A stretch of DNA of 64,000 nt from Kiritimatiellia bacterium (GTDB lineage Bacteria > Verrucomicrobiota > Kiritimatiellia > CAIQIC01 > Lenti-01), in NCBI GenBank assembly GCA_040768005.1, contig JAXGNL010000004.1, positions 18,153-82,152 on the forward strand, read 5' to 3'. Of the stretch, positions 1-24,843 are shown piece after piece (position 1 is the stretch's first letter; every line of letters starts with the position of its first letter). The position numbers were made by a program, and so were the translations under genes. Below the pieces are notes generated by a model that saw only the letters and a program-made list of their open reading frames with translations, was not told the origin of the DNA and made no database searches.

Positions 1-750
1 GCCCTCGCCGCGCAACTCCGCGCCGCCGGCCTGTGGTCCGTCTGCGTCAGCCTCGATGCCGACACGGCCGAGGCCCACGACGCCGCCCGCGGCCCCGGCT
101 CGTTTGCCGTGGCCCTCGAGGCTCTGCGCCTCGCCCGCGCCCAGGGCTTCTACACCATGGCCGGCATGGTCGCCACGCCCGCCGCCGTCCGCGCCGGCAT
201 GCCAAACCGCATCCACCGCCTGCTCGCCGGACTGCGCGCGCACGAACTGCGCATCGTCGAAGCCATGCCCTGCGGCGGACTCTCCGGCTGCGCCGCCTCG
301 GCGCTGCTGGCGCCCGGCGACATCGCCGCCCTCCGGCGGTTCCACGTCGAAACCAACCGCGCCCGGCACGGCCCCAAAGTCTGCGCGTTCAACCATGTCG
401 AAAGCCCCGAGATCTTCGGCTGCGGCGCCGGCACCCAGCACCTCTTCATCGAACCCTCCGGTGTCGTCTGCCCCTGCGACTTCACCCCGCTCGGCTTCGG
501 CAACGTCCGCGACACCCCCCTCGCCGACCTCTGGCACCGCATGAACCTCGCCATGGGCGACAATCCCCGCACCCATTGCTTCATCCAGCGCCACCGCGAT
601 GCCGTCCAGGCCCGCGCCGCCGCCGGCTTTCCCCTGCCGCCCGACCTCAGCGAGCAGATCTGCCGCGAGGCCGGCCCCGAACCCCTCCCCGCCTATTTCG
701 CCCTCGTCACGTCGAACACCCGCGCCCCAACACCCGGAGATGCCCCATGA
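1..750 (+). CDS. radical SAM enzyme, C-terminal SPASM/twitch-domain portion; 5' end lies outside the window
   Basis: Frame 1 is open from nt 1 to a TGA at 748-750. Translation contains the Cys-rich auxiliary-cluster motif CGAGTQHLFIEPSGVVCPCDF typical of SPASM-domain radical SAM proteins. Confidence 0.65.
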   Translation, partial: ALAAQLRAAGLWSVCVSLDADTAEAHDAARGPGSFAVALEALRLARAQGFYTMAGMVATPAAVRAGMPNRIHRLLAGLRAHELRIVEAMPCGGLSGCAASALLAPGDIAALRRFHVETNRARHGPKVCAFNHVESPEIFGCGAGTQHLFIEPSGVVCPCDFTPLGFGNVRDTPLADLWHRMNLAMGDNPRTHCFIQRHRDAVQARAAAGFPLPPDLSEQICREAGPEPLPAYFALVTSNTRAPTPGDAP

Positions 751-1331: not shown

Positions 1332-1412
1332 CCCCTTCTCTCCGTTCCCTCTGCACCCGGCCCCCTTGTTCCCGGGCTTGACCCGCCGCCCGGGTTGCAG
1401 GACAGTTTCCCC

Positions 1413-2525
1413 ATGCGCCGCCTGCTTGTCCTCATCCTGTCCGGAGCCGTCATGACCGCTTCCGCCTCCCCCCCCCTGCGCGTCGCCTGCGTCGGCGACA
1501 GCATCACCTACGGCGACCGTCTCGACGACCGCCTCCGCGACGCCTATCCCGCCGTCCTGAACCGCCTCGCCAACGGCCGCTTCGTCGCCGGCAATTTCGG
1601 CGTCAACGGCGCCACCGCCATCGCCGGCATTCCCTTCCGCTCCTGGTCCGCCACCCAGGCCTGCCGCGACGCCATGGCCTTCCACCCCGATATCGTCGTC
1701 GTCATGCTCGGCATCAATGACCTCGCCTTCCCCGATCTCCACAACCGCTATCCCCGGGATCTCCGCGACCTCGTCGAACGCTTCCAGGCCCTGCCCTCCG
1801 CTCCGCGCCTCTTCCTCTGCACCCTGACCCCCGTGGCCGCCGATGCCCCCGACGCCCCCGTCAACCGGACCATCCGCGGCACCCTCAACCCCGCCATCCG
1901 GACCGTGGCCGCCCAGACCGGTGCCGGCATCATTGATCTCTCTCCGGTTTTCGACAACCGCTTCCACCTCTTTCCCGACGGCCTGCATCCCGACCCCGAA
2001 GGCGCCGAACTCATCGCCCGAACCGTCCTGAAGTCCCTGGAGTCCGCCGCCGCGCCGGCCGGCTCCCTCCCCCCGGCCCCCGTCTCCGGCCCCCCCTCGG
2101 AATCCATCCGCCGCGAAGCCCGGGCCGCCCGCTTCCGCGCCGAACTCTGGCTTCAGGACCACCCCGCCCCGGTACCGCCCTCCCAACCGGACGCGCCGGA
2201 AACGGAACAGCCTCCCACGCGCCCCGAAGACCTCGCCGCCCTGCTGCCCCTGCTCGAAGGCGCCATTCCCGCCGGCCTCGCCGACCCGTTCTGCGCCTGC
2301 GCCGAACTGGCCGAGGCTCTCGCCCGCATCGGACACGATACCGTGTTCCTCGACGACTCCCGCCCCGTCGCCTGGCGCGAAGCCCTCCTCCACCAGCTCG
2401 TTCAGCGCCAGCGCATCGATTCCCGCGGACGCGGCTTCTGGGGCGACGGCGACGAGGCCGCCGAACTCGCCCGCTCCACCGCCTGCGCCCTCCGGGCCCT
2501 CGAAGCCGCCGGCATCGGCCCGTAA
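1413..2525 (+). CDS. secreted SGNH/GDSL-family hydrolase with ~170-aa C-terminal extension of unknown function
   Basis: Signal peptide MRRLLVLILSGAVMTASA. GDSIT block (VACVGDSITYGD) and a downstream DGLHP block characteristic of SGNH hydrolases. ATG at 1413 is in frame with the track ORF 1395..2525. Confidence 0.7.
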   Translation: MRRLLVLILSGAVMTASASPPLRVACVGDSITYGDRLDDRLRDAYPAVLNRLANGRFVAGNFGVNGATAIAGIPFRSWSATQACRDAMAFHPDIVVVMLGINDLAFPDLHNRYPRDLRDLVERFQALPSAPRLFLCTLTPVAADAPDAPVNRTIRGTLNPAIRTVAAQTGAGIIDLSPVFDNRFHLFPDGLHPDPEGAELIARTVLKSLESAAAPAGSLPPAPVSGPPSESIRREARAARFRAELWLQDHPAPVPPSQPDAPETEQPPTRPEDLAALLPLLEGAIPAGLADPFCACAELAEALARIGHDTVFLDDSRPVAWREALLHQLVQRQRIDSRGRGFWGDGDEAAELARSTACALRALEAAGIGP

Positions 2526-2792
2526 AAATATCGCGTTGCGTTCGCTGCGGGCCACCCGCGGCTGTCATCCCGAGCTTGCTTGCCTCGCCGGAGCCTTGCG
2601 CGAAGGCGGGTCGAGGGATCTCGATCCCGGTCCCGCCGGCCCGCCGTTGGGATCAGGCCGGGATATTTCGACTCCGGCGCGATGCGCCTTCGCTCAATAT
2701 GACCCGAGCTTGCACCCAATCGCAGATGCGCCCCGCCCCCCCCGCCGTGCTTTTGGCTGGTGTCCGGCCGCGCCCTGCGGCAGGATGCCCCC

Positions 2793-3587
2793 ATGATGCG
2801 TCCCGACCATTTGAAAATCTCCGCCTGCGTCACCGCCGGCAACGAGGAGGACAAGATCGCCGCCTGTCTCGCCAGCCTGTCCTGGTGCGATGAAACCATT
2901 GTCGTGGACTCCTTCAGCCGGGACAAAACCTTCGAAATCTCCAAACAGTACACCCCCCACGTCTATCAGCACGCCTGGGAAGGCTACATCGCCCAGAAAA
3001 ACTACATCCGCTCCCTCGCCCACTATCCCTGGATCCTGTTCGTGGACGCCGACGAAGTGGTCTCCAAGGCCCTGCGCGACGAAATCGAGACCGAATTCCA
3101 GCGCGGCCCCGGCGACGTGGCCGGCTACAGCTTCCCCCGCATGGTCCATTATCTCGGCAAATGGATCCGCCACGGCGAATGGTACCCCGACATCAAACTG
3201 CGCCTGTTCCGGAAGGACCGCGGCCATTCCGAAGGCCAGGAACCCCACGACCGCGTCGTCGTGGACGGCCCCGTCAAAACCCTCCGCGCCCCCCTCTACC
3301 ACTTCACCTACGACAACCTCGCCGACCACATCCATACCATCAACCGGTTCTCCTCCATCACCGCCAACGAGAAATACCACCGCGGCGACGTCTTCCGCTG
3401 GCGCGATCTGTTCTTCCGCCCCCCCTTCCGCTTCTTCAAGTCCTACATCCTGAAAACCGGCCTCCTCGACGGCCGCCAGGGCTTCATCATCGCCGTCCTG
3501 TCCGCCTTCGGCGTCTTCGTCAAGTATGCCAAGCTCCTGGAACTCGGCATCCAGCACCGCCCCCCCGATCCCCGGCCCCATGACTGA
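2793..3587 (+). CDS. family-2 glycosyltransferase, LPS-core type (WaaE/KdtX-like)
   Basis: ORF 2760..3587. ATG 2793 gives MMRPDHLKISACVTAGNEED...VDSFSRD...FVDADE, the GT-A fold with a DxD-like DADE motif. Its stop overlaps the start of the next gene by 8 nt. Confidence 0.75.
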   Translation: MMRPDHLKISACVTAGNEEDKIAACLASLSWCDETIVVDSFSRDKTFEISKQYTPHVYQHAWEGYIAQKNYIRSLAHYPWILFVDADEVVSKALRDEIETEFQRGPGDVAGYSFPRMVHYLGKWIRHGEWYPDIKLRLFRKDRGHSEGQEPHDRVVVDGPVKTLRAPLYHFTYDNLADHIHTINRFSSITANEKYHRGDVFRWRDLFFRPPFRFFKSYILKTGLLDGRQGFIIAVLSAFGVFVKYAKLLELGIQHRPPDPRPHD

Positions 3588-5670
3588 ACCCGCCTGGCAG
3601 ACGCGCGGCCCCTGGCGCCTCCTCATCGCCTCCGGCCGGGACCGGCCCGGCTTCGATGAAACCCTCGCGCGCCTCCCGTTTCTCGTGGAAAAAGAGGCGG
3701 CCCCCCTCGTCCGCCCCGGCCGCCACCGCGTGGACCGCCTCCTGCTGTCCTGCGGCGACGCCACCATGGACGCCGTCGTCAAATCCTACGGCGCGCAGGC
3801 CGCCTGGCGCGACCGCCTCGCCCTGCGGCACGGCTCCAAGGCCGAACGCGCCTTCCGCACCGCCCTCGCCCTCCGCGACGCCGGCGTCGGCACCCCCGCC
3901 CCCATCGCCGTCGTCGAACGCTGGGAAGGCCCCCGCCTCCGCGACAGCCGCCTCGTCTCCGCCTTCGTCCCCCGCCTGACCAGCTTCCGCGACGAACTCG
4001 ATCGCCTCTATGCCGAAGCTCCCCGCTGCACCCCCCTCATGGACCTGCTCCAGGCCGTCGCCGGCGCCGTCCGGGCCCTGCACGATGCCGGCATCCTCCA
4101 CCGCGACCTCGGCAACCAGAACATCGCCCTTCAGCGCGACCCCGATCAGCCCGGCGCCCCCTGGAACGTCCTGTTTCTCGACCTCAACCGCGCCCGCCAG
4201 ATCCCCGCCCCCACCCCCGCCCAGCGCGGCGCCGATCTCGCCCGCCTCGACCTGCCCTCGGATTTCCGCCGCGTCTTCCACGCCATGTACCACCACGGCC
4301 ATTCCCCGCCGCCCGAGTTCGCCGACGCCGAACAACGCGCCCGCGCCGCCTTCGACCGCCATACCGCCCTGCGCCCCCTCCGCCATCCCCTGCGCGAAGC
4401 CCGCCTCCGCCGCCAGAACGCCGGCGTCACCCCCCCCCTGCGCGGACGCGACATCTGGATCTGGGACGACCGCTCCGCCCAGGCCATCCCCGCCTATGCC
4501 CCCCGCGACCGCCGGCGCCTCCTGCCCGCCGCCAACGTCACCGCCGCCCTGCGCGGCATCGCCCGTACCGGCCTCGCCATCCGCCGCCGCCACCGCGACC
4601 TTCTCCGGCAGAGCTTCCAGGCCCCCGTGCCGTTCGACGGCGCCATCGGCATGACCCTCGACGCCGAACCCGCCGCCTGGTCCCGCCAGCTCGCCTTTCT
4701 CGATCAGCTGCAGGGCGAACAGAAACTCCCCCTCCTCCTCCGCCTCTATCATCACCAGAATCCCGAGGCCTGGCACTGGACCCTCGACCAGGCCCTGAAC
4801 CTCCACCGCCGCGGGCATTCCGTCGCCCTTGCCCTCGTCCAGGACCGCCGCGCCATCCGCGAACCCAAAGGCTGGCGCCAGATGGTCACCCTCGCCTTCG
4901 ACCGCGCCCACACCTTCGCCGACTTCTTCGAAATCGGCCACGCCGTCAACCGCTCCAAATGGGGCATCTGGGATTTCCGCGACTACGCCCGCCTGCTCGA
5001 CCCCGTCCGGTCCAGCCTCATCCAGTATCCCGACGCCCGGATCACCGGGCCCGCCTGCATCGATTTCGAACCCCACGCCCTCGCCGCCCTGCTCGAGATC
5101 CTTCCCCCGGACATCCGCTTCCACGCCCTCTCCCACCACCTTTACGTGGACCGCCGCGGCGCCCCCGAAAACCGCCAGGGCCCTCACGACACCGTCTCCA
5201 AATGCGCCCTCCTGCGCGCCTTCGCACGCGTCCATTCCTTCACCGACGACCGGCCCCTCATCACCGAAGTCAACTGGCCCCTCGCCGGCACCGGCCCCTG
5301 GTCCCCCGTCACCTCCCCCTACGAAACCCTCGCCCCCCGCCAAAACGATCCCTCCGTCAGCGAAGACACCTACGCCGCCTACATGGCCCGCTACCTCCTG
5401 CTGACCATCGCCTCCGGCCACATCGCCCGGGTCTACTGGTGGCGCCTCGCCGCCCGCGGCTTCGGACTCGTGGACGACACCGATCCCGCCGCCTGGCGCC
5501 CCCGCCCCGCCTTCACCGCCCTGCAAACCATGCTCCGCCAACTCCGCGGCGCCGCCTTCTCGCGCAAACCCGAAACCCCTCCCGGCGAAGTCGCCCTCGA
5601 ATTCACCCGCCCCGACGGGTCCCCCCTCACCGCCCGCTGGACCCTCGACACCCCCCCCGTGTGGGACTGA
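3580..5670 (+). CDS. two-domain protein: N-terminal lipopolysaccharide kinase (Kdo/WaaP/InaA family) domain fused to a C-terminal clan GH-A-like TIM-barrel domain
   Basis: ATG 3580 (MTEPAWQ...) lies inside ORF 3526..5670. N-terminal ~300 aa carry kinase-like HRDLGNQNIAL ... LFLDLNRA motifs. C-terminal ~390 aa carry glycoside-hydrolase-like strands (FFEIGHAVN, PLITEVNWP). It is a single uninterrupted frame of 696 aa. Confidence 0.6.
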   Translation: MTEPAWQTRGPWRLLIASGRDRPGFDETLARLPFLVEKEAAPLVRPGRHRVDRLLLSCGDATMDAVVKSYGAQAAWRDRLALRHGSKAERAFRTALALRDAGVGTPAPIAVVERWEGPRLRDSRLVSAFVPRLTSFRDELDRLYAEAPRCTPLMDLLQAVAGAVRALHDAGILHRDLGNQNIALQRDPDQPGAPWNVLFLDLNRARQIPAPTPAQRGADLARLDLPSDFRRVFHAMYHHGHSPPPEFADAEQRARAAFDRHTALRPLRHPLREARLRRQNAGVTPPLRGRDIWIWDDRSAQAIPAYAPRDRRRLLPAANVTAALRGIARTGLAIRRRHRDLLRQSFQAPVPFDGAIGMTLDAEPAAWSRQLAFLDQLQGEQKLPLLLRLYHHQNPEAWHWTLDQALNLHRRGHSVALALVQDRRAIREPKGWRQMVTLAFDRAHTFADFFEIGHAVNRSKWGIWDFRDYARLLDPVRSSLIQYPDARITGPACIDFEPHALAALLEILPPDIRFHALSHHLYVDRRGAPENRQGPHDTVSKCALLRAFARVHSFTDDRPLITEVNWPLAGTGPWSPVTSPYETLAPRQNDPSVSEDTYAAYMARYLLLTIASGHIARVYWWRLAARGFGLVDDTDPAAWRPRPAFTALQTMLRQLRGAAFSRKPETPPGEVALEFTRPDGSPLTARWTLDTPPVWD

Positions 5671-5749: not shown

Positions 5750-5858
5750 ACGGTGTTTATAAACTCCGATACCCCCGAATCAATACTGTCTTCTATAACG
5801 CTTCTTACTTGCTCATGAATAAGCAGATATGAAGTGAACGGTGTTTATAAACTCCGAT
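5750..5858. repeat. two identical 21-bp direct repeats (ACGGTGTTTATAAACTCCGAT), each a near-palindrome, flanking a 67-bp AT-rich spacer between convergent gene ends
   Basis: Copies at about 5750-5770 and 5838-5858, seen directly in the sequence. The core GTTTATAAAC is self-complementary. Local GC is far below the ~70% window average. Confidence 0.8.
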
Positions 5859-6698: not shown

Positions 6699-8442
6699 CT
6701 AGCGCTTGTACTTCCGCCGCGGCCGGTAGCCCGTGTGCAGCAGCTCGTGGGACTTGTGCCCCAGCGGCGCGCCCAGGAAATCCTTGTAGAGCTTCTGGAT
6801 CATCGGATTTTCGTGCGAACAGCGGAACGCGCTCTTTTCATCGTCGCGGTAGATGCCCGCCGCGCGCTGCGCGCGGATCTCGTCGGTGGCGCCGTACGGC
6901 TGCCCGCCGCCGCCCACGCAACCCCCGCGGCACGCCATCACCTCGATGAAGTGGAACGGCGTCTCCACCCCCTTCTTCCGTGCCGCGCGCACCTTGTCGA
7001 GCACCTTCTCGATGTTGGCCATCGAGTGGGCCACCGCCACGCGCACTTCCTTGCCCGCCACCTGCAGCGTCGCCTCCTTCACGCCGTCGAGCCCGCGGAT
7101 CGCCGTCAGTTCCATCGTGGGCAGCCGCCCTTGTCAGCGCTCCAGTGCGCCGTGCGCAGCGCGGCCTCCATCACGCCGCCGGTCACGCCGAAGATCGTGC
7201 CCGCCCCCGTGTAGTCGCCCAGCACCGAGTCCACCCTGCTCGTCGTCGGGCAGGTTCGGGAAGTCGATCCCCGCGCTCTTGATCATCCGGCAGAGCTCGC
7301 GCGTCGTCAGCGAATAATCGATGTCCTGCTGCCCGAGCTGCTCATCTCCTCGCTGCGGCGGATCTCGAACTTCTTGGCCGTGCAGGGCATGATGGACACC
7401 ACAAACAGGTCCTTGGGATCCAGCCCCAGCCGCTTGGCGTAGTAGGCCTTCAGCGCCCCCACCATCGCCTGCGGCGACTTGGCCGTCGAGAAGTTCGAAT
7501 GAAGTCCGGCGCGAATTTCTCCATGTAGTCGGTCCACGATTGGCAGTAGTTGGTGATCAGCGGCAGGTCGCCCTCGCTGTTCACGAAGCGCTCGATGAAC
7601 TCGGAGCCCTCCTCCATGATCGTCAGGTCCGCGCCGAAATTCGTGTCGAACACCGCGTTGAACCCCAGCCGCCGCAGCGCGGCGTAGATCTTGCCCGTCA
7701 GCAGCGTCCCCGGCTCGTAGCCGAAATCCTCCTCCAGCGCCACGCGCACCGCCGGGGCGATCTGCACCACGCAGCAGCCGGGTCCGCCAGCGCCGCGTAC
7801 ACTTCCTTCGCGTGGCTGTGCTCGTAGATCGCCCTCACCGGACAGTGCGCCGAGCACTGCCCGCACTGGATGCACGGCGATCGCCAGCGTCACGTCCGCC
7901 GCCGGCGCGATGCGCGTGGTCTCCCCGCGCCCGATGAACTCCAGCGCCCACACCCCTGCATCTGCTGGCACACCGCCGCGCACCGCCCGCACAGAATGCA
8001 CTTCTCCGGATTCAGGATCAGCGCATCCCGTCGTGTCGTCCGCCGGCAGGTCCCGCAGCCGCTTGCCGTAGGGCGCCTCGCGCACCCCGAACTCCGCCGC
8101 CAGCCGCTGCAGCTCGCAGTTGTTGTTGCGCGGGCACTGCAGGCAGTCGTCCGGATGCGTCGAGAGAATCAGCTGGATCACCGTGCGCCGGATGCCGTAG
8201 AGCTCCGGATCGTGGGTCGTGACCTCCTGGCCGTCCGCCGCCGGCGCCACGCACGCGCGCACCAGCTTGTTGAACCCCTTGATCTTCACCACGCAGATCC
8301 CGCACGCCGCCCACGCCGGCAGGTCCGGGTGGTAGCACAGGCTCGGAATCTTCACCTGCACCTGCTTCGCCGCGTTCAGGATCGTCGTGCCCTCCGGCAC
8401 CTCCACCGGCAGCCCGTTGATGGTCAGCTTGACTGTCTTCAT
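6699..8442 (-). pseudogene. hndD: [FeFe]-hydrogenase catalytic subunit (HndD/HydA-type), interrupted by multiple frame breaks
   Basis: Consecutive pieces of one HydA homolog lie in three track ORFs in different frames (7450..8607, 7307..7537, 6699..7115), and further pieces lie in untracked frames. The N-terminus has a 2Fe-2S block (CYHPDLPAWAACGICVV) and a His-ligated 4Fe-4S block (HPDDCLQCPRNNNCE). The ferredoxin motifs CILCGRCAAVC and CIQCGQCSAHCP are only recovered in alternative frames. H-cluster motifs MPCTAKKFE and FIEVMACRGGCVGGGGQP are present. I counted at least 6-8 frame switches by hand. The start ATG overlaps the hndC stop (ATGA). Confidence 0.85.
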
Positions 8443-10248
8443 CGTTCCATCCCTCTCGCCTGGCGGCTCACGGCGCCGAACTTGCACGCCTTGAGGCACT
8501 CGCCGCACTTGATGCAGTTCTCCTGGAGGATCCGGTGCGGCTTCTGCCGCTCGCCCTCGATCGTGTTCACCGGGCACTTGCGCGCGCACAGCGTGCAGCC
8601 GATGCACTTGGCCGGATCGATCTCGTAGGTCACCAGCTTCTTGCAGACCCCGGCCGGACAGCGATGGTCCTCGATGTGCGCCCGGTACTCCTCCGCGAAA
8701 TAGTGCACGTCGAGAGCACGGGTCGGGCGCCGGCCTGCCCCAGCCCGGCCAGCGCCGCCTTCTGCATCGCCGCGCCCACCTCCCGGATCTTGTCGAGATC
8801 CTCCGCCTCGCCGCGCGCCCTCGCGCAGATCTTCTCGAGCAGGTTCAGCAGCGTCCGCGTCCCGATCCGGCACGGCGCGCACTTGCCGCAGCTCTCCTTG
8901 TCCACGCAGAATTCCTGCAGAACTGCGCCACGTACAGCATGCAGTCGTCCTCGTCCATCACGATCATGCCGCCCGAGCCCATGATCGACCCCAGCTCCTG
9001 CAGATGCTCGTAGTCGATCGGCGTGTCCAGATACTCCGCCGTGATCACCCCGCCCGACGGCCCCCCCGTCTGCACCGCCTTGAACGCCTTGCCGCCCCGG
9101 ATCCCCCCGCCGATGTCGTAGATGATCTCCCGCAGCGTGATGCCCATCGGCACCTCGATCAGCCCCGAATTGATGATCTTGCCCGTCAGCGCAAACACCT
9201 TCGTGCCCGGGCTCTTCGGCGTGCCCACCTTCGCGAACGCCTCGCCCCCGTTGAGCAGAATCACCGGAATGTTCGCGTACGTCTCGACGTTGTTGATCAC
9301 CGTCGGCTTCTGCCACAGCCCCGACACCGCCGGGAACGGCGGACGCGGAATCGGCATGCCCCGCTTGCCCATGATCGACGCCAGCAGCGCCGTCTCCTCC
9401 CCGCAGACGAACGCCCCCGCCCCCAGCCGGATCTCCACGTCGAAATCAAACCCCGATCCCAGGATGTTCGCACCCAGCAGCCCGTACTCGCGCGCCTGCG
9501 CGATCGCCGTCTCCAGGTGCTCGATCGCCAGCGGATACTCCGCGCGGATGTAGATCACCCCCCTGGACGCCCCCACCGTCCGCCCCGCGATCGCCATCGC
9601 CTCCAGGATCGAGTGCGGATCGCCCTCGATCGTCGACCGGTCCATGTACGCCCCGGGATCCCCCTCATCCGCGTTGCACACCACGTACTTCTCGCCGCCC
9701 GGCGCGTCCTTCGTGAACTTCCATTTCATCCACGTCGGAAACCCCGCCCCGCCCCGCCCCCGCAGGCCGGACTTCTTCAGCTCCTCCACCACCTGGTCCG
9801 GCGTCATCTCCGTGAGCACCTTCGCCAGCGCCTCGTACCCCATCCGCGCGATGTATTCGTCGATCTTCTCCGGATCGATCACCCCGCAGTTGCGCAGCAC
9901 CATGCGGTACTGCTTCTGGTAGAACGACAGCTCCTCCATCCGGATCAGCGAGCGGTCCCGCCCCTTTTCGTACAGCAGCCGCTGCACCGGACGCCCCTTC
10001 AGCACGTGCTCGGCCACGATCTCCCGCGCGTCCGACGGCTGCACGCTGACGTAGAACGTCTCGTCGGGCAGGATCTTCACGATCGGCCCCTTCGCGCAGA
10101 AGCCGAAGCAGCCCGTCCGCACCACCTGCACCTTCCCCTGCGCCCCCTGCGCCGCCACCTCCTGCACCAGCGCCTCGTAGAGCTCGTTGCTGTGCGTCGC
10201 CACGCAGGCCGTTCCCCCGCACACCAGAATGTAGGTCTTGATCGCCAT
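8439..10248 (-). pseudogene. hndC: NAD(P)H-binding flavoprotein subunit of hydrogenase (HndC / NuoF-like), two frame breaks near the 3' end
   Basis: ORF 8845..10248 (MAIKTYILVCGGTAC ... GGMIVMDEDDCMLYVAQFC) continues in a different frame in ORF 8630..9316 (EFCVDKESCGKCAPCRIGT ... PVLST) and then in ORF 8439..8882 (LDVHYFAEEYRAHIEDHRCPAGVC...CIGCTLCARKCP...CIKCGEC). This is a NuoF-like core plus C-terminal 2x[4Fe-4S]. Confidence 0.85.
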
Positions 10249-23799: not shown

Positions 23800-24843
23800 A
23801 TGGTTGCCAATCACCGCCGCCTGAAGTCTTTTCTGTATATCGCAACCAGCCTGCTGCTGGCAATCGGCGTATTCAGCTGGCTGCTCGCGCACGTCACCTG
23901 GCGGCAGGTGGCCGATCTGATTCTGTCCATCCATCTTCCGCTTCTCGGACTGTTTTTCGTCCTCTCGATGGCCATGCAGATCGTGCGTACCCTGCGTTAC
24001 CGCGTCGTGTTGAAGTCGGTCGGCCAAACCCCCGGCTTTTTCCGCCTGTTCCTGGTCGTGCTGGTCCGGGGACTGTGCGTGGATCTGCTCCCCGCCCGCA
24101 CCGGCGAACTGGTCTATATCTATCTCCTCCGGGCCAAACTGGGCGTGGAACTGGGCGCGGCCACCGCCAGTTTCGCGCTGGCTTTTCTGTTCGATCTGAC
24201 GGCCCTGGCCCCCCTGCTGGTCGCGGCCCTGCTCCTGGCCGGAACCGGGATCCCGTTCTCCCCCTGGGTGCTGGCGGCCGCCGGCGGCGGCCTGCTGCTG
24301 CTGGCCCTGCTGGCCCTGCGCCTTCTGCCCGCCGCGCTGCGCCTGGGCTTCCGGCTCTGCCCCCCCGGCCCCGGCCGAACCGCGCGTTTCCGCCGCTGGG
24401 CCCGCCACTTCCTGGCCGCCACCCATCGGCAGATCCGCCGCGCCCGCGCCCGGGGCATCGACGCCCCCCTGTTCGGTCTCTCCCTCGGCGTGCGCCTGTT
24501 GAAATATTCCGCGCTCTATGTCCTGCTGCTCGCCATGCTCCGGCCGCAGGGCTACACCCTGGCCACCCTGCCGTTCCCCAAGGTGTTTCTCGGACTGTGC
24601 GCCGCCGAGATGGCCGCCAGCCTGCCCGTGTCCGGCATCGCCGGTTTCGGCGCCTACCAGGGCGCCTGGGCCGGCGTCTTCATGCTGCTGGGCTTCCCCG
24701 CGGACATGGCCAAGGCCACCAGCATTTCCCACCATGTGTTCACCCAGGCCTACGGCTACCTCATCGGCGGCGCCAGTGTGCTCGCCCTTCTCCTCCTCCC
24801 CTCCGTCCTCCCGGCCCGAACCGCCCGCCCCGATCCCCCATGA
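23800..24843 (+). CDS. polytopic membrane protein, flippase-like / lysylphosphatidylglycerol-synthase TM-region family (UPF0104-like)
   Basis: 347 aa, about 8 TM helices, Arg-rich loops. Confidence 0.55.
   Translation: MVANHRRLKSFLYIATSLLLAIGVFSWLLAHVTWRQVADLILSIHLPLLGLFFVLSMAMQIVRTLRYRVVLKSVGQTPGFFRLFLVVLVRGLCVDLLPARTGELVYIYLLRAKLGVELGAATASFALAFLFDLTALAPLLVAALLLAGTGIPFSPWVLAAAGGGLLLLALLALRLLPAALRLGFRLCPPGPGRTARFRRWARHFLAATHRQIRRARARGIDAPLFGLSLGVRLLKYSALYVLLLAMLRPQGYTLATLPFPKVFLGLCAAEMAASLPVSGIAGFGAYQGAWAGVFMLLGFPADMAKATSISHHVFTQAYGYLIGGASVLALLLLPSVLPARTARPDPP

What the first reader, a model, noticed from the sequence alone, without database searches (positions are those of the whole stretch)
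2793..5670. LPS-type kinase (Kdo/WaaP family) fused in one frame to a glycoside-hydrolase-like TIM-barrel domain, coupled to a GT2 gene
The GT2 gene (WaaE-like) overlaps by 8 nt a 696-aa ORF. The first ~300 aa of this ORF have the catalytic-loop signature of the lipopolysaccharide kinase family (ILHRDLGNQNIAL ... LFLDLNRA). The last ~390 aa look like a clan GH-A (beta/alpha)8 barrel: a FFEIGHAVN strand where GH5-like enzymes have the (N)E acid/base, and PLITEVNWP where they have the nucleophile (I/V)TE. The acid/base Glu appears replaced (HA instead of NE), so the barrel may be catalytically altered or may be a binding module. A fusion of an envelope sugar kinase with a hydrolase-like domain is unusual and suggests a coupled remodelling activity on a core oligosaccharide or a capsule.
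Basis: partly seen in the sequence, partly recalled or inferred. Interest (0 to 1): 0.55.

Follow-up and report, generated by a model that had tools for sequence, protein, structure and literature searches.

The report
LPS kinase fused to acid/base-less glycosidase barrel
One conserved gene in a Kiritimatiellia-type bacterium joins an intact lipopolysaccharide sugar kinase to an unannotated GH39-like barrel that keeps its catalytic nucleophile but never has the usual acid/base residue, which suggests undescribed chemistry on the inner part of lipopolysaccharide.

Summary
A GT2 gene (2793..3587) overlaps by 8 nt a 696-aa ORF (3580..5670). Residues 1-280 are a catalytically complete Kdo/WaaP-family kinase: it scores above the PF06293 cut-off and its best solved relative is P. 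aeruginosa WaaP. Residues ~290-696 match no Pfam, NCBIfam or PDB sequence, but they fold with high confidence (pLDDT 91) into a clan GH-A barrel. The closest structure is PslG (GH39; Foldseek E 4e-14). A profile-profile alignment to GH39 (94% probability) puts A455 on the acid/base Glu and E563 on the nucleophile Glu. Among 246 relatives the acid/base position is never Asp or Glu, whereas E563 is kept in 245. Nearby N457, R458, K460, D495, D524 and K541 are essentially invariant.

The fusion is not an assembly artefact. It recurs in every complete ORF among the 80 PVC genomes retrieved (of at least 590 matched). Distant lineages encode kinase and barrel as adjacent overlapping genes. Neighbours elsewhere are LPS genes: LpxK, GT9, LpxL, WaaY, an EptA-like gene, and ArnC/ArnT-like genes.

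The most likely reading is a bifunctional cytoplasmic enzyme of the LPS inner core whose barrel handles a phosphate-linked or otherwise anionic glycoside. The substrates are inferred, not shown. This is a new variant of known kinds.

The parts
1395..2525 (+). GDSL/SGNH esterase gene (376 aa) with an N-terminal signal-like hydrophobic segment. It is the conserved upstream neighbour of the GT2 and kinase-barrel pair in close relatives only.
   Evidence: PF13472 E 2e-28. Orthologue directly upstream in 8 of the 10 closest loci, L008-L013 and L016. Hydrophobic N-terminus.
2793..3587 (+). GT2 glycosyltransferase gene (264 aa from the Met at 2793; the mechanical ORF starts at 2760). It has a C-terminal amphipathic or hydrophobic helix.
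   Evidence: PF00535 E 4e-12. Homologues are ~265 aa. An orthologue (54-83% id) lies adjacent to or within ~2 kb of the fusion gene in L001-2, L007-13, L016, L028, L033, L037, L047, L053 and L057. Maximum Kyte-Doolittle score 1.92 at aa 242.
3580..3587 (+). 8-nt overlap ATGACTGA: the start codon of the kinase-barrel gene lies inside the end of the GT2 gene. This suggests translational coupling.
   Evidence: Sequence read directly. Similar 4-nt overlaps with a glycosyltransferase or sugar-nucleotide enzyme gene occur in L001, L004, L005 and L006.
3580..5670 (+). Kinase-barrel fusion gene, 696 aa plus stop. No transmembrane segment or signal peptide, so predicted cytoplasmic.
   Evidence: Full-length AlphaFold2 model pLDDT 93.5, pTM 0.91, with a structured (not floppy) connection between the halves. 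Maximum Kyte-Doolittle(19) score 1.07.
3580..4419 (+). Kdo/WaaP-family kinase domain (aa 1-280), including C-terminal helices with the invariant basic motif RHTALRPxRHPxRE (aa 260-273).
   Evidence: PF06293 above cut-off. Best PDB sequence hit is WaaP 6dfl, E 1e-9. Foldseek finds PRPK/Bud32, WaaP and Rio1. K68, H174, D176, N181 and D201 are invariant.
4105..4107 (+). Codon of D176, the catalytic Asp of the HRD loop. Other kinase catalytic codons: K68 at 3781-3783, N181 at 4120-4122, D201 at 4180-4182.
   Evidence: Invariant columns. Coordinates checked. Aligned to HRD and IDL of WaaP.
4456..4626 (+). Start of the barrel module: two short N-terminal strands (WIWDDRSAQ, aa 293-301) and a long helix (aa 317-343). 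Together with the C-terminal strands these build the side beta-domain, as in GH30 and GH39.
   Evidence: Secondary structure of the models. W295, D296 and Q301 are invariant and also present in stand-alone barrels.
4627..5544 (+). (beta/alpha)8 barrel proper (aa ~350-655), related to GH39 and clan GH-A.
4939..4944 (+). Codons H454-A455, which occupy the Asn-Glu (general acid/base) position at the end of beta4. Invariant N457, R458, K460 and W461 follow at 4948-4962.
   Evidence: hhalign to GH39: H454 aligns with Asn159 and A455 with Glu160 of XynB1 (same). Census: position 455 is A233/T6/V5/C1/G1 of 246 and never D or E.
5266..5268 (+). Codon E563, equivalent to the catalytic nucleophile at the end of beta7 (TEVNWP).
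   Evidence: Aligned to Glu278 of XynB1. Conserved in 245 of 246 relatives.
5545..5667 (+). C-terminal beta-strands (aa ~656-696) that complete the side beta-domain.
   Evidence: Strands 659-662, 670-676 and 682-688 in the model. Weak sequence match of this region to the GH39 structure 5jvk, E 0.0026.

Best explanation
The gene encodes one rigid, cytoplasmic, two-domain enzyme that works on the inner part of lipopolysaccharide (lipid A, Kdo and heptose region).

Shown:
- The N-terminal half is a catalytically complete WaaP/Kdo-family kinase.
- The C-terminal half is a GH39-related clan GH-A barrel. It keeps the nucleophile Glu (E563) and most of the GH-A signature (R388, H520-x-Y522, W620).
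- In the whole family the general acid/base Glu is replaced by Ala.
- The catalytic face carries invariant N457, R458, K460, D495, D524 and K541, and nearly invariant R525 and R526.
- Kinase and barrel are linked in evolution: fused in PVC bacteria, and adjacent overlapping genes elsewhere.

Inferred:
- The kinase uses ATP to phosphorylate a core sugar, either heptose or Kdo.
- The barrel is a working catalyst derived from a retaining beta-glycosidase. It acts on a glycoside whose leaving group or acceptor is anionic (a phosphate, possibly the one installed by the kinase, or a polyprenyl-phosphate or sugar-phosphate). Such a substrate needs no general acid. The basic residues would hold the phosphate.
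- The translationally coupled GT2 supplies or extends the sugar involved.

Net effect: coupled phosphorylation and glycosyl remodelling of the LPS inner core before export.
For: Kinase:
- PF06293 at 42 bits against a cut-off of 21.3.
- RfaP and KdkA are the best NCBIfam hits.
- WaaP 6dfl is the best PDB sequence hit and lies among the top fold matches, after human PRPK.
- K68, D176, N181 and D201 are invariant in 88 homologues.

Barrel:
- AlphaFold2 pLDDT 90.7.
- Foldseek finds PslG at E 4e-14, TM 0.62.
- hhalign to GH39 gives 94.3% probability, E 1e-7, with A455 on the acid/base and E563 on the nucleophile (same register).
- PslG's catalytic pair is Glu165/Glu276 (PMC11912335).

Pattern typical of catalysis:
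- Conserved residues sit at the C-terminal ends of beta2 to beta8.
- They survive down to ~27% identity.
- Position 455 is never acidic in 246 members, while E563 is kept in 245.

Coupling of the two halves:
- Fusion in all complete ORFs of 86 loci and in 97 of 150 representatives.
- One reversed-order fusion and one GT4-kinase-barrel triple fusion.
- Separate overlapping genes in L089 and L093/94.
- pTM 0.91 for the whole chain.

LPS context:
- L006: LpxK, GT9, fusion, two LpxL genes, MurJ.
- L003: rml genes, GT4, WaaY, GT25, EptA-like gene.
- L004: GT2, WaaY, GT4, UDP-glucose dehydrogenase.
- L089: GT9, kinase, barrel.

Link to phosphate-sugar chemistry:
- ArnT-like PMT_2 GT-C genes, some with ArnC-like GT2 genes, lie next to stand-alone barrels (L090, L091/92). 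One is fused to the kinase upstream of a barrel (L093). Others lie next to the fused gene in L037, L069 and L030.

Cytoplasmic location: no TM segment or signal peptide, and the kinase needs ATP.
Against: - No substrate, product or activity was observed; all chemistry is inferred.
- In this window the gene is not inside an LPS cluster. Only the GT2 and a GDSL esterase accompany it; the other neighbours scanned (hydrogenase, MutS, molybdenum hydroxylase and others) are unrelated to LPS.
- Loss of the acid/base is also the hallmark of non-catalytic pseudo-glycosidases.
- Another acidic residue (E451, D495, E497 or D524) might serve as acid/base, which would make this an ordinary hydrolase.
- I could not superpose coordinates, so the position of the basic residues relative to the -1/+1 subsites is deduced only from strand order.
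- Some stand-alone relatives are membrane-anchored and probably periplasmic, so the substrate must exist on both faces of the membrane or differ between clades.
- The kinase scores far below the equivalog cut-offs for WaaP (36 against 170 bits) and KdkA (26 against 142), so its acceptor sugar is unknown.
- The only PVC LPS structure I read (Akkermansia) does not report core phosphates.
Confidence: 0.5

Rival explanations
1. The barrel is a pseudo-glycosidase. It is a non-catalytic carbohydrate-recognition module (like chi-lectins, or Klotho domains that have lost a catalytic Glu) that docks the kinase onto the right core oligosaccharide. Only the kinase is an enzyme.
For: The canonical acid/base is absent from the entire family. 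The two halves are predicted to form one rigid body (pTM 0.91), which would suit a substrate-positioning role. No glycosidase family HMM recognises the domain.
Against: The nucleophile Glu and about a dozen polar or charged residues at the catalytic face are invariant down to 27% identity. That is more than binding usually requires. The barrel also exists alone, sometimes membrane-anchored and paired with a GT-C glycosyltransferase rather than a kinase. It therefore has a role of its own.
Confidence: 0.22
2. The barrel is an ordinary retaining glycoside hydrolase in which the acid/base has moved to another strand (for example E497 or D495 on beta5, D524 on beta6, or E451). It trims or edits a core or polysaccharide intermediate, as PslG does for Psl. 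The kinase simply acts on the same molecule.
For: The closest structure is PslG, a glycosidase encoded in a polysaccharide biosynthesis operon. D495, E497 and D524 are invariant or nearly so and sit at strand ends.
Against: In every clan GH-A family the acid/base sits on beta4 (established knowledge of the clan), and no relocation is known there. The beta4 loop has instead gained an invariant N-R-x-K-W motif. A cytoplasmic location is unusual for a polysaccharide-trimming hydrolase.
Confidence: 0.18
3. The kinase half is a protein kinase or ATPase of the Bud32/RIO type that regulates the barrel or other envelope enzymes. It is not a sugar kinase.
For: The best fold matches include human PRPK/Bud32 and Rio1. 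Some sources annotate homologues as 'Bud32'. The catalytic loop HRDLGNQN resembles HRDLKPxN of protein kinases.
Against: PF06293 is the only family above its cut-off; Pkinase scores 17 bits against a cut-off of 31.7. WaaP is the best sequence match in the PDB. Genomic neighbours are LPS core and lipid A enzymes.
Confidence: 0.07
4. The single ORF is an artefact: a lost stop codon, a frameshift or an assembly error has joined two separate genes.
For: Nearby genes in this window (hydrogenase and NuoF-like, 6699-10248) look broken by frameshifts, so the assembly or the genome does contain indels.
Against: The same uninterrupted fusion, of the same length, is found in hundreds of independent assemblies at 38-99% identity. 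The junction region is well conserved and confidently structured.
Confidence: 0.01

Closest known systems
WaaP (RfaP), LPS core heptose(I) kinase, e.g. P. aeruginosa WaaP (PDB 6dfl); and KdkA, Kdo kinase
   Same: Same Pfam family (PF06293) and same eukaryotic-like kinase fold with the Lys, HRD-Asp, Asn and metal-binding Asp. Found in LPS core gene neighbourhoods in relatives. Cytoplasmic.
   Different: Only ~23% identity (Foldseek alignment). Scores far below the WaaP and KdkA equivalog cut-offs. The catalytic loop is HRDLGNQN rather than HRDCYxxH. It is permanently joined to a ~410-aa barrel that WaaP and KdkA lack. The acceptor sugar is unknown.
PslG of Pseudomonas aeruginosa (GH39 endo-beta-glucanase of the Psl operon; PDB 4zn2, 9g17)
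   Same: Best structural match (E 4e-14, TM 0.62, 19% id). Barrel plus side beta-domain. Encoded among glycan biosynthesis genes. The nucleophile Glu is conserved.
   Different: PslG has the Glu165 acid/base, whereas here the position is Ala. PslG is membrane-anchored and works outside the cytoplasm, whereas the fused protein has no anchor. There is no kinase in PslG. The sequence is not recognised by the GH39 Pfam model.
GH39 beta-xylosidase XynB1 of Geobacillus stearothermophilus (PDB 1w91, 2bs9; E160A mutant 2bfg)
   Same: Profile alignment covers beta4 to beta8 with FE(I/V)xxx, HxY and (I/L)TE(V/Y)N in register.
   Different: The natural protein here looks like the engineered E160A acid/base mutant. 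The mutant chain (2bfg) actually scores better than wild type.
Myrosinase (GH1 thioglucosidase), a natural clan GH-A enzyme without the acid/base Glu
   Same: A retaining GH-A barrel that keeps the nucleophile but lacks the acid/base, because its substrate has an anionic, good leaving group. This rests on established knowledge and was not tested here. It is the precedent for the proposed mechanism.
   Different: Different family (GH1), Gln rather than Ala at the position, extracellular plant enzyme, no kinase, unrelated substrate.
TreS-Pep2 (trehalose synthase-maltokinase) fusion of actinobacteria
   Same: A glycosidase-type TIM barrel and a eukaryotic-like-fold sugar kinase in one polypeptide, acting in sequence on one sugar. 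This is established knowledge offered as an analogy only.
   Different: GH13 (clan GH-H) barrel with an intact catalytic triad. The kinase belongs to the maltokinase/APH family, not PF06293. The domain order is opposite. The pathway is cytosolic glucan synthesis, not LPS.
ArnC/ArnT-type lipid A and core modification systems (polyprenyl-phosphate sugar synthase GT2 plus PMT_2 GT-C transferase)
   Same: PMT_2 and ArnC-like GT2 genes recur next to barrel genes, and in one lineage PMT_2 is fused to the kinase. These systems decorate LPS phosphates using phosphate-linked sugar donors.
   Different: No ArnT-like gene lies in this 64-kb window. The known Arn, Lgm and Flm pathways contain no GH-like barrel and no WaaP-like kinase.

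Membership tests
Lipopolysaccharide kinase (Kdo/WaaP) family, PF06293 | Match to the family HMM above the curated gathering score | tested here: met
   42 bits against a cut-off of 21.3, E 9e-11, aa 87-224. The same family is precomputed for all 120 listed homologues.
Lipopolysaccharide kinase (Kdo/WaaP) family, PF06293 | Complete kinase catalytic set: ATP-binding Lys, HRD Asp, Asn, and the metal-binding Asp of the DFG-equivalent | tested here: met
   K68, H174-R-D176, N181 and D201 are invariant in 27 and in 88 homologues. They align to HRD and IDL of WaaP 6dfl.
WaaP (heptose I kinase) or KdkA (Kdo kinase) as exact functional equivalents | Score above the NCBIfam equivalog cut-off | tested here: not met
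   RfaP 35.9 bits against 170; KdkA 26.4 bits against 142. The protein belongs to the family but cannot be filed as either enzyme.
WaaP (heptose I kinase) or KdkA (Kdo kinase) as exact functional equivalents | ATP-dependent phosphorylation of a defined LPS core sugar | not testable with these tools
   Needs enzyme assays with lipid A-core acceptors.
Clan GH-A glycoside hydrolases (GH39-like) | (beta/alpha)8 barrel with structural similarity to clan members | tested here: met
   Model pLDDT 90.7. Foldseek finds PslG at E 4e-14, and 74 PDB chains at E <= 0.001; the 50 best listed are all clan GH-A families.
Clan GH-A glycoside hydrolases (GH39-like) | Nucleophile Glu at the end of beta7 | tested here: met
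   E563 aligned to Glu278 of XynB1. Conserved in 245 of 246.
Clan GH-A glycoside hydrolases (GH39-like) | General acid/base Glu (Asn-Glu pair) at the end of beta4 | tested here: not met
   H454-A455 occupy the Asn-Glu positions. Position 455 is Ala, Thr, Val, Cys or Gly and never Asp or Glu in 246 relatives. It should therefore not be filed as a conventional GH-A hydrolase.
GH39 (Pfam PF01229) | Match to the family HMM | tested here: not met
   No Pfam hit in aa 280-696 even at E <= 1. The relation shows only at profile-profile level (94.3%) and at fold level. This is a separate, unannotated sequence family with 464 clusters at 50% identity.
PslG-like biosynthesis-operon endoglycosidase | Membrane anchor or export signal placing the barrel outside the cytoplasm | tested here: not met
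   No hydrophobic segment in the fused protein (maximum KD 1.07). Four stand-alone relatives do have N-terminal anchors (KD 2.35-2.85).
GT2 glycosyltransferase (partner gene); 'WaaE-like' | GT2 family HMM match; specific orthology to WaaE/LgtF (beta-1,4-glucosyltransferase on heptose I) | tested here: inconclusive
   PF00535 was met. No WaaE-specific model or named WaaE homologue turned up; source names are generic. WaaE orthology was not tested against a reference sequence.

The most novel reading that the evidence does not exclude
The barrel is a natural 'glycoligase': a retaining glycosidase scaffold that evolution has stripped of its acid/base so that it makes or breaks glycosyl-phosphate bonds. 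One possibility is that it takes a beta-linked phosphate-activated donor (a polyprenyl-phosphate or sugar-phosphate). Another is that it transfers a glycosyl residue onto the very phosphate that its fused kinase has just put on the LPS core. Either way it would be a glycoside-hydrolase-derived, non-Leloir route to phosphodiester-linked sugars on lipopolysaccharide, conserved across the PVC superphylum.
Probability: 0.15. Interest if true: 0.85.

Novelty: new variant of a known kind. Interest (0 to 1): 0.6.

Why it matters
LPS inner-core phosphorylation controls outer-membrane stability and antibiotic and host-peptide resistance. It has been studied almost only in Proteobacteria.

This finding shows that a whole superphylum uses a different, two-headed enzyme. 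The superphylum covers Kiritimatiellia, Lentisphaerae and Verrucomicrobia, including Akkermansiaceae, relatives of gut symbionts. The second head is a sequence family absent from Pfam and unrecognised by the GH39 model.

For carbohydrate enzymology it is a large natural family of clan GH-A barrels with the nucleophile but without the acid/base. That state is otherwise known mainly from engineered glycoligases and from myrosinase. It therefore makes directly testable what such a scaffold does in nature.

For annotation, the homologues that carry a source name are currently labelled 'hypothetical', 'Bud32' or 'InaA family kinase', and the barrel is not mentioned in any of these names.

Tried and rejected
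- **Single-sequence searches of the C-terminal half.** Searches against Pfam, NCBIfam and PDB sequences gave nothing. Profile and fold methods were needed.
- **Full-length profile against PDB.** The output was swamped by protein kinases. I rebuilt a barrel-only profile from stand-alone relatives (A3).
- **PslG sequence.** I could not obtain it for a direct alignment. Instead I used the XynB1 fragment printed to collect GH39 fragments and ran hhalign. That search returned only short fragments, so the GH39 profile covers beta4 to beta8 only.
- **Coordinates.** Model coordinates are not exposed, so no superposition, electrostatics or docking was possible.
- **Frameshift or mis-assembly artefact.** Rejected.
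- **Capsule context.** No capsule export or polymerase genes were seen near any homologue. The LPS inner core is favoured.
- **Literature.** Searches for a described kinase-glycosidase fusion or for PF06293 architectures found nothing relevant. The Akkermansia LOS structure paper gave no core-phosphate information.
- **LPS cluster in this window.** The idea does not hold, because the surrounding genes scanned are unrelated to LPS.
- **PHROGs, PADLOC and viral libraries.** Not used, because nothing suggests a phage or defence role.

Full report
**1. What is in the sequence**

On the + strand a GT2 glycosyltransferase ORF ends with TGA at 3585-3587. The next gene starts with ATG at 3580-3582, so the two overlap by the 8 nt ATGACTGA. 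The mechanical GT2 ORF is 2760..3587, but homologues of ~265 aa fit a start at 2793.

The second ORF runs uninterrupted to the stop at 5668-5670 and codes for 696 aa. An upstream in-frame ATG at 3526 would give 714 aa, but all close homologues begin at the 3580 Met. GC content is 64-74% here, as in the rest of the region. Upstream lies a GDSL/SGNH esterase gene with a signal-like N-terminus (1395..2525). Downstream, on the other strand, lies a haemolysin-III family gene.

**2. The N-terminal half is an intact LPS-type kinase**

- Residues 87-224 match PF06293 (Kdo/WaaP) at 42 bits against a gathering score of 21.3. Protein-kinase models score below their cut-offs.
- The best NCBIfam models are RfaP/WaaP and KdkA, but far below their equivalog cut-offs.
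- The best solved relative by sequence is P. aeruginosa WaaP (6dfl, E 1e-9).
- The full-length model matches PRPK/Bud32, WaaP and Rio1 folds.
- K68, H174-R-D176, N181 and D201 are invariant in 88 homologues.

The kinase half is therefore a member of the family with all catalytic residues, but it is not an orthologue of a characterised enzyme. Its acceptor is unknown.

**3. The C-terminal half is a GH39-related barrel without the acid/base**

No Pfam, NCBIfam or PDB sequence match exists for aa 280-696. AlphaFold2 with 88 homologues gave pLDDT 90.7 and pTM 0.92. The model has eight beta/alpha units plus a small beta-domain built from N- and C-terminal strands.

Foldseek against the PDB put PslG (GH39) first at E 4e-14, TM 0.62 and 19% identity. 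GH30 xylanases and other clan GH-A families followed.

A profile of the barrel that includes distant stand-alone relatives gave a weak hit to the GH39 xylosidase XynB1. Tellingly, the E160A acid/base mutant chain 2bfg scored better than wild type. I then built a GH39 profile and ran hhalign, which gave 94.3% probability, E 1e-7 and 149 aligned columns. The register is as follows:

| This protein | GH39 (XynB1) | Role |
|---|---|---|
| F450-E451-I452-G453-H454-A455-V456-N457 | F-E-V-W-N159-E160-P-N | beta4; E160 is the acid/base |
| H520-L-Y522 | H-x-Y | beta6 motif |
| T562-E563-V-N565 | T-E278-Y-N | beta7; E278 is the nucleophile |

A455 therefore sits on the general acid/base and E563 on the nucleophile. 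PslG's corresponding pair is Glu165/Glu276 (PMC11912335).

**4. This is a family trait, not decay**

Among 246 relatives that cover beta4 to beta8:
- Position 455 is Ala in 233 and Thr, Val, Cys or Gly in the rest. It is never Asp or Glu.
- E563 is kept in 245.
- R388, Q421, N457, R458, K460, W461, D495, D524, K541 and N565 are essentially invariant.
- R423, R525, R526, Y522 and W620 are nearly invariant.
- H454 is conserved in the fused clade but varies in distant members (H, Q, R, E, V, S, N).

All these residues lie at the C-terminal ends of the barrel strands, which is the catalytic face. The pattern combines three things: the nucleophile and the -1 subsite signature are retained, the acid/base is gone, and an invariant N-R-x-K-W loop plus an R-R pair have been gained. 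This argues for a working active site adapted to an anionic group rather than a dead domain, but that is inference.

**5. The fusion is real, old and functionally meaningful**

- The word-indexed search found 558 homologues. Nearly all of the 120 listed are ~700 aa and carry PF06293.
- An exhaustive search with the barrel alone found 464 clusters at 50% identity.
- Of the best 150 representatives, 97 carry kinase and barrel in one chain: 93 canonical, 3 with extra N-terminal domains including a GT4-kinase-barrel protein, and 1 in reversed order. A further 47 are fragments, and at least 6 are complete stand-alone barrels.
- In one-genome-per-species data, at least 590 genomes encode a relative. 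The 80 best are Kiritimatiellia, Lentisphaerae/Victivallales, Opitutales, Verrucomicrobiales and Akkermansiaceae MAGs.
- In every locus with a complete ORF the two halves are fused.
- The full-length model has pLDDT 93.5 and pTM 0.91, and the connection between the halves is helical and confident. This suggests one rigid body. No PDB entry spans both halves.
- In distant lineages the parts are separate but adjacent with overlapping stop and start. In candidate division CSSED10-310 the order is GT9, then a membrane domain fused to the kinase, then the barrel. In another lineage a 1242-aa PA14-PMT_2-kinase protein is followed by the barrel.

**6. Context**

In this window only the GT2 and, in close relatives, the GDSL gene travel with the fusion. 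The other neighbours scanned are unrelated to LPS. In other lineages the neighbours are LPS genes:

| Locus | Neighbouring genes |
|---|---|
| L006 | LpxK, GT9 heptosyltransferase, fusion, two lipid A acyltransferases, MurJ |
| L003 | rml genes, GT4, WaaY-like kinase, GT25, an EptA-like transferase |
| L004 | GT2, WaaY, GT4, UDP-glucose dehydrogenase |

A second recurring partner is the ArnT-like PMT_2 GT-C transferase, some with an ArnC-like GT2:
- It overlaps TM-anchored stand-alone barrels in L090 and L091/92.
- It is fused to the kinase in L093.
- It lies next to the fused gene in L037, L069 and L030.

The fused protein has no TM segment or signal peptide, so it is cytoplasmic. Four stand-alone relatives have N-terminal anchors.

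**7. Most likely mechanism**

*Shown:* a cytoplasmic two-domain protein with an intact WaaP-family kinase and an acid/base-less, nucleophile-bearing GH39-like barrel, evolutionarily locked together and associated with LPS inner-core and lipid A genes.

*Inferred:* the kinase phosphorylates a core sugar. The barrel acts on a glycoside whose leaving group or acceptor is a phosphate or other anion, so no general acid is needed. The precedents are myrosinase and engineered acid/base mutants (glycoligases). The basic residues would hold the anion, and the coupled GT2 would supply the sugar.

I give this overall reading about 0.5. The rivals are:
- a non-catalytic recognition module, 0.22;
- an ordinary hydrolase with a relocated acid/base, 0.18;
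- a regulatory protein kinase, 0.07;
- an artefact, 0.01.

**8. Comparison with known systems, and novelty**

The kinase belongs to PF06293 but is neither WaaP nor KdkA by the equivalog test. The barrel works on the GH-A scaffold and is homologous to GH39 at profile and fold level. It fails two defining tests, the GH39 HMM and the beta4 acid/base. It should therefore not be filed as a GH39 or a conventional GH-A hydrolase.

Functional analogies are PslG (a glycosidase in a glycan biosynthesis operon), myrosinase (a natural acid/base-less GH-A enzyme) and TreS-Pep2 (a glycosidase barrel fused to a sugar kinase).

I found no description of this architecture in the searchable literature. Named homologues are annotated only as hypothetical, Bud32 or InaA-family kinase. 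I rate it a new variant of known kinds, with interest 0.6. It is widespread, conserved, unannotated and mechanistically suggestive, but there is no experimental handle yet.

**9. Limits**

- No coordinates were available for superposition or electrostatics.
- The GH39 profile covers only beta4 to beta8.
- 'WaaE-like' for the GT2 was not tested.
- All substrate assignments are inferred from neighbours in other genomes.

Noticed in passing
window 5752-5770 and 5840-5858: An exact 19-bp direct repeat, GGTGTTTATAAACTCCGAT, occurs twice 88 bp apart. It lies in the AT-richer gap between the kinase-barrel gene and the convergent HlyIII gene. None is expected by chance and there are no other copies in the window. 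It could be a regulatory or terminator-region element or a small repeat.
   Followed up: partly
window 6699-10248 (- strand): The [FeFe]-hydrogenase-like and NuoF-like (Complex1_51K) genes appear broken into several overlapping ORFs in different frames, with garbled stretches (6699..7115, 7134..7286, 7307..7537, 7450..8607; 8439..8882, 8630..9316, 8845..10248). This indicates either pseudogenes or indel errors in the assembly. The kinase-barrel gene itself is intact and 99% identical to a database protein.
   Followed up: partly
window 1395-2525: This GDSL/SGNH esterase has a signal-like N-terminus and an extra ~150-aa C-terminal region with no Pfam match. It is conserved directly upstream of the GT2 and kinase-barrel pair in the closest relatives only (L008-L013, L016). 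It might add or remove O-acyl groups on the same glycan.
   Followed up: partly
L093 3276-7004 and L094 505-4233: A 1242-aa protein combines PA14, an ArnT-like PMT_2 GT-C glycosyltransferase and a Kdo-family kinase. A stand-alone barrel gene follows with a 4-nt overlap. A GT-C transferase fused to a WaaP-like kinase is itself an unusual architecture.
   Followed up: partly
L089 6496-9287: In a candidate division CSSED10-310 MAG the kinase is fused to an N-terminal PEMT/ICMT-like membrane domain (501 aa). The barrel is a separate gene whose start overlaps the kinase stop. A GT9 heptosyltransferase lies directly upstream.
   Followed up: yes
P0124 (= L033 1126-4467), P0169, P0187, P0225: Variant architectures of the family: GT4-kinase-barrel (1113 aa); barrel followed by kinase (745 aa); and N-terminal FAD synthetase/riboflavin kinase or TsaE domains in front of kinase-barrel. 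The last two may be gene-calling read-throughs rather than real fusions.
   Followed up: partly
window 4357-4398 (aa 260-273): A nearly invariant basic motif, RHTALRPxRHPxRE, lies in the helices that join kinase and barrel (R265, R268, H269 and P270 are invariant). It could bind the membrane or the anionic lipid A region. Its role is unexplained.
   Followed up: no
L019, L021, L026, L032, L039, L041, L081, L084: Some loci carrying typical PVC-type fusion genes come from MAGs labelled Enterobacteriaceae, Bacteroidaceae, Sphaerochaetaceae, Syntrophobacteraceae, Marinimicrobium or Burkholderiales. These are more likely mis-binned contigs or loose labels than lateral transfer, but this was not checked.
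   Followed up: no
window 23800-24843: This is an LPG_synthase_TM (flippase-like) family gene. The same family sits in the ArnC/ArnT-like cluster beside a stand-alone barrel in L090. Here it lies 18 kb away, so it is probably unrelated.
   Followed up: no
window 1-750: This is the C-terminal part of a radical-SAM/SPASM-domain protein, cut by the window start (PF13186).
   Followed up: no
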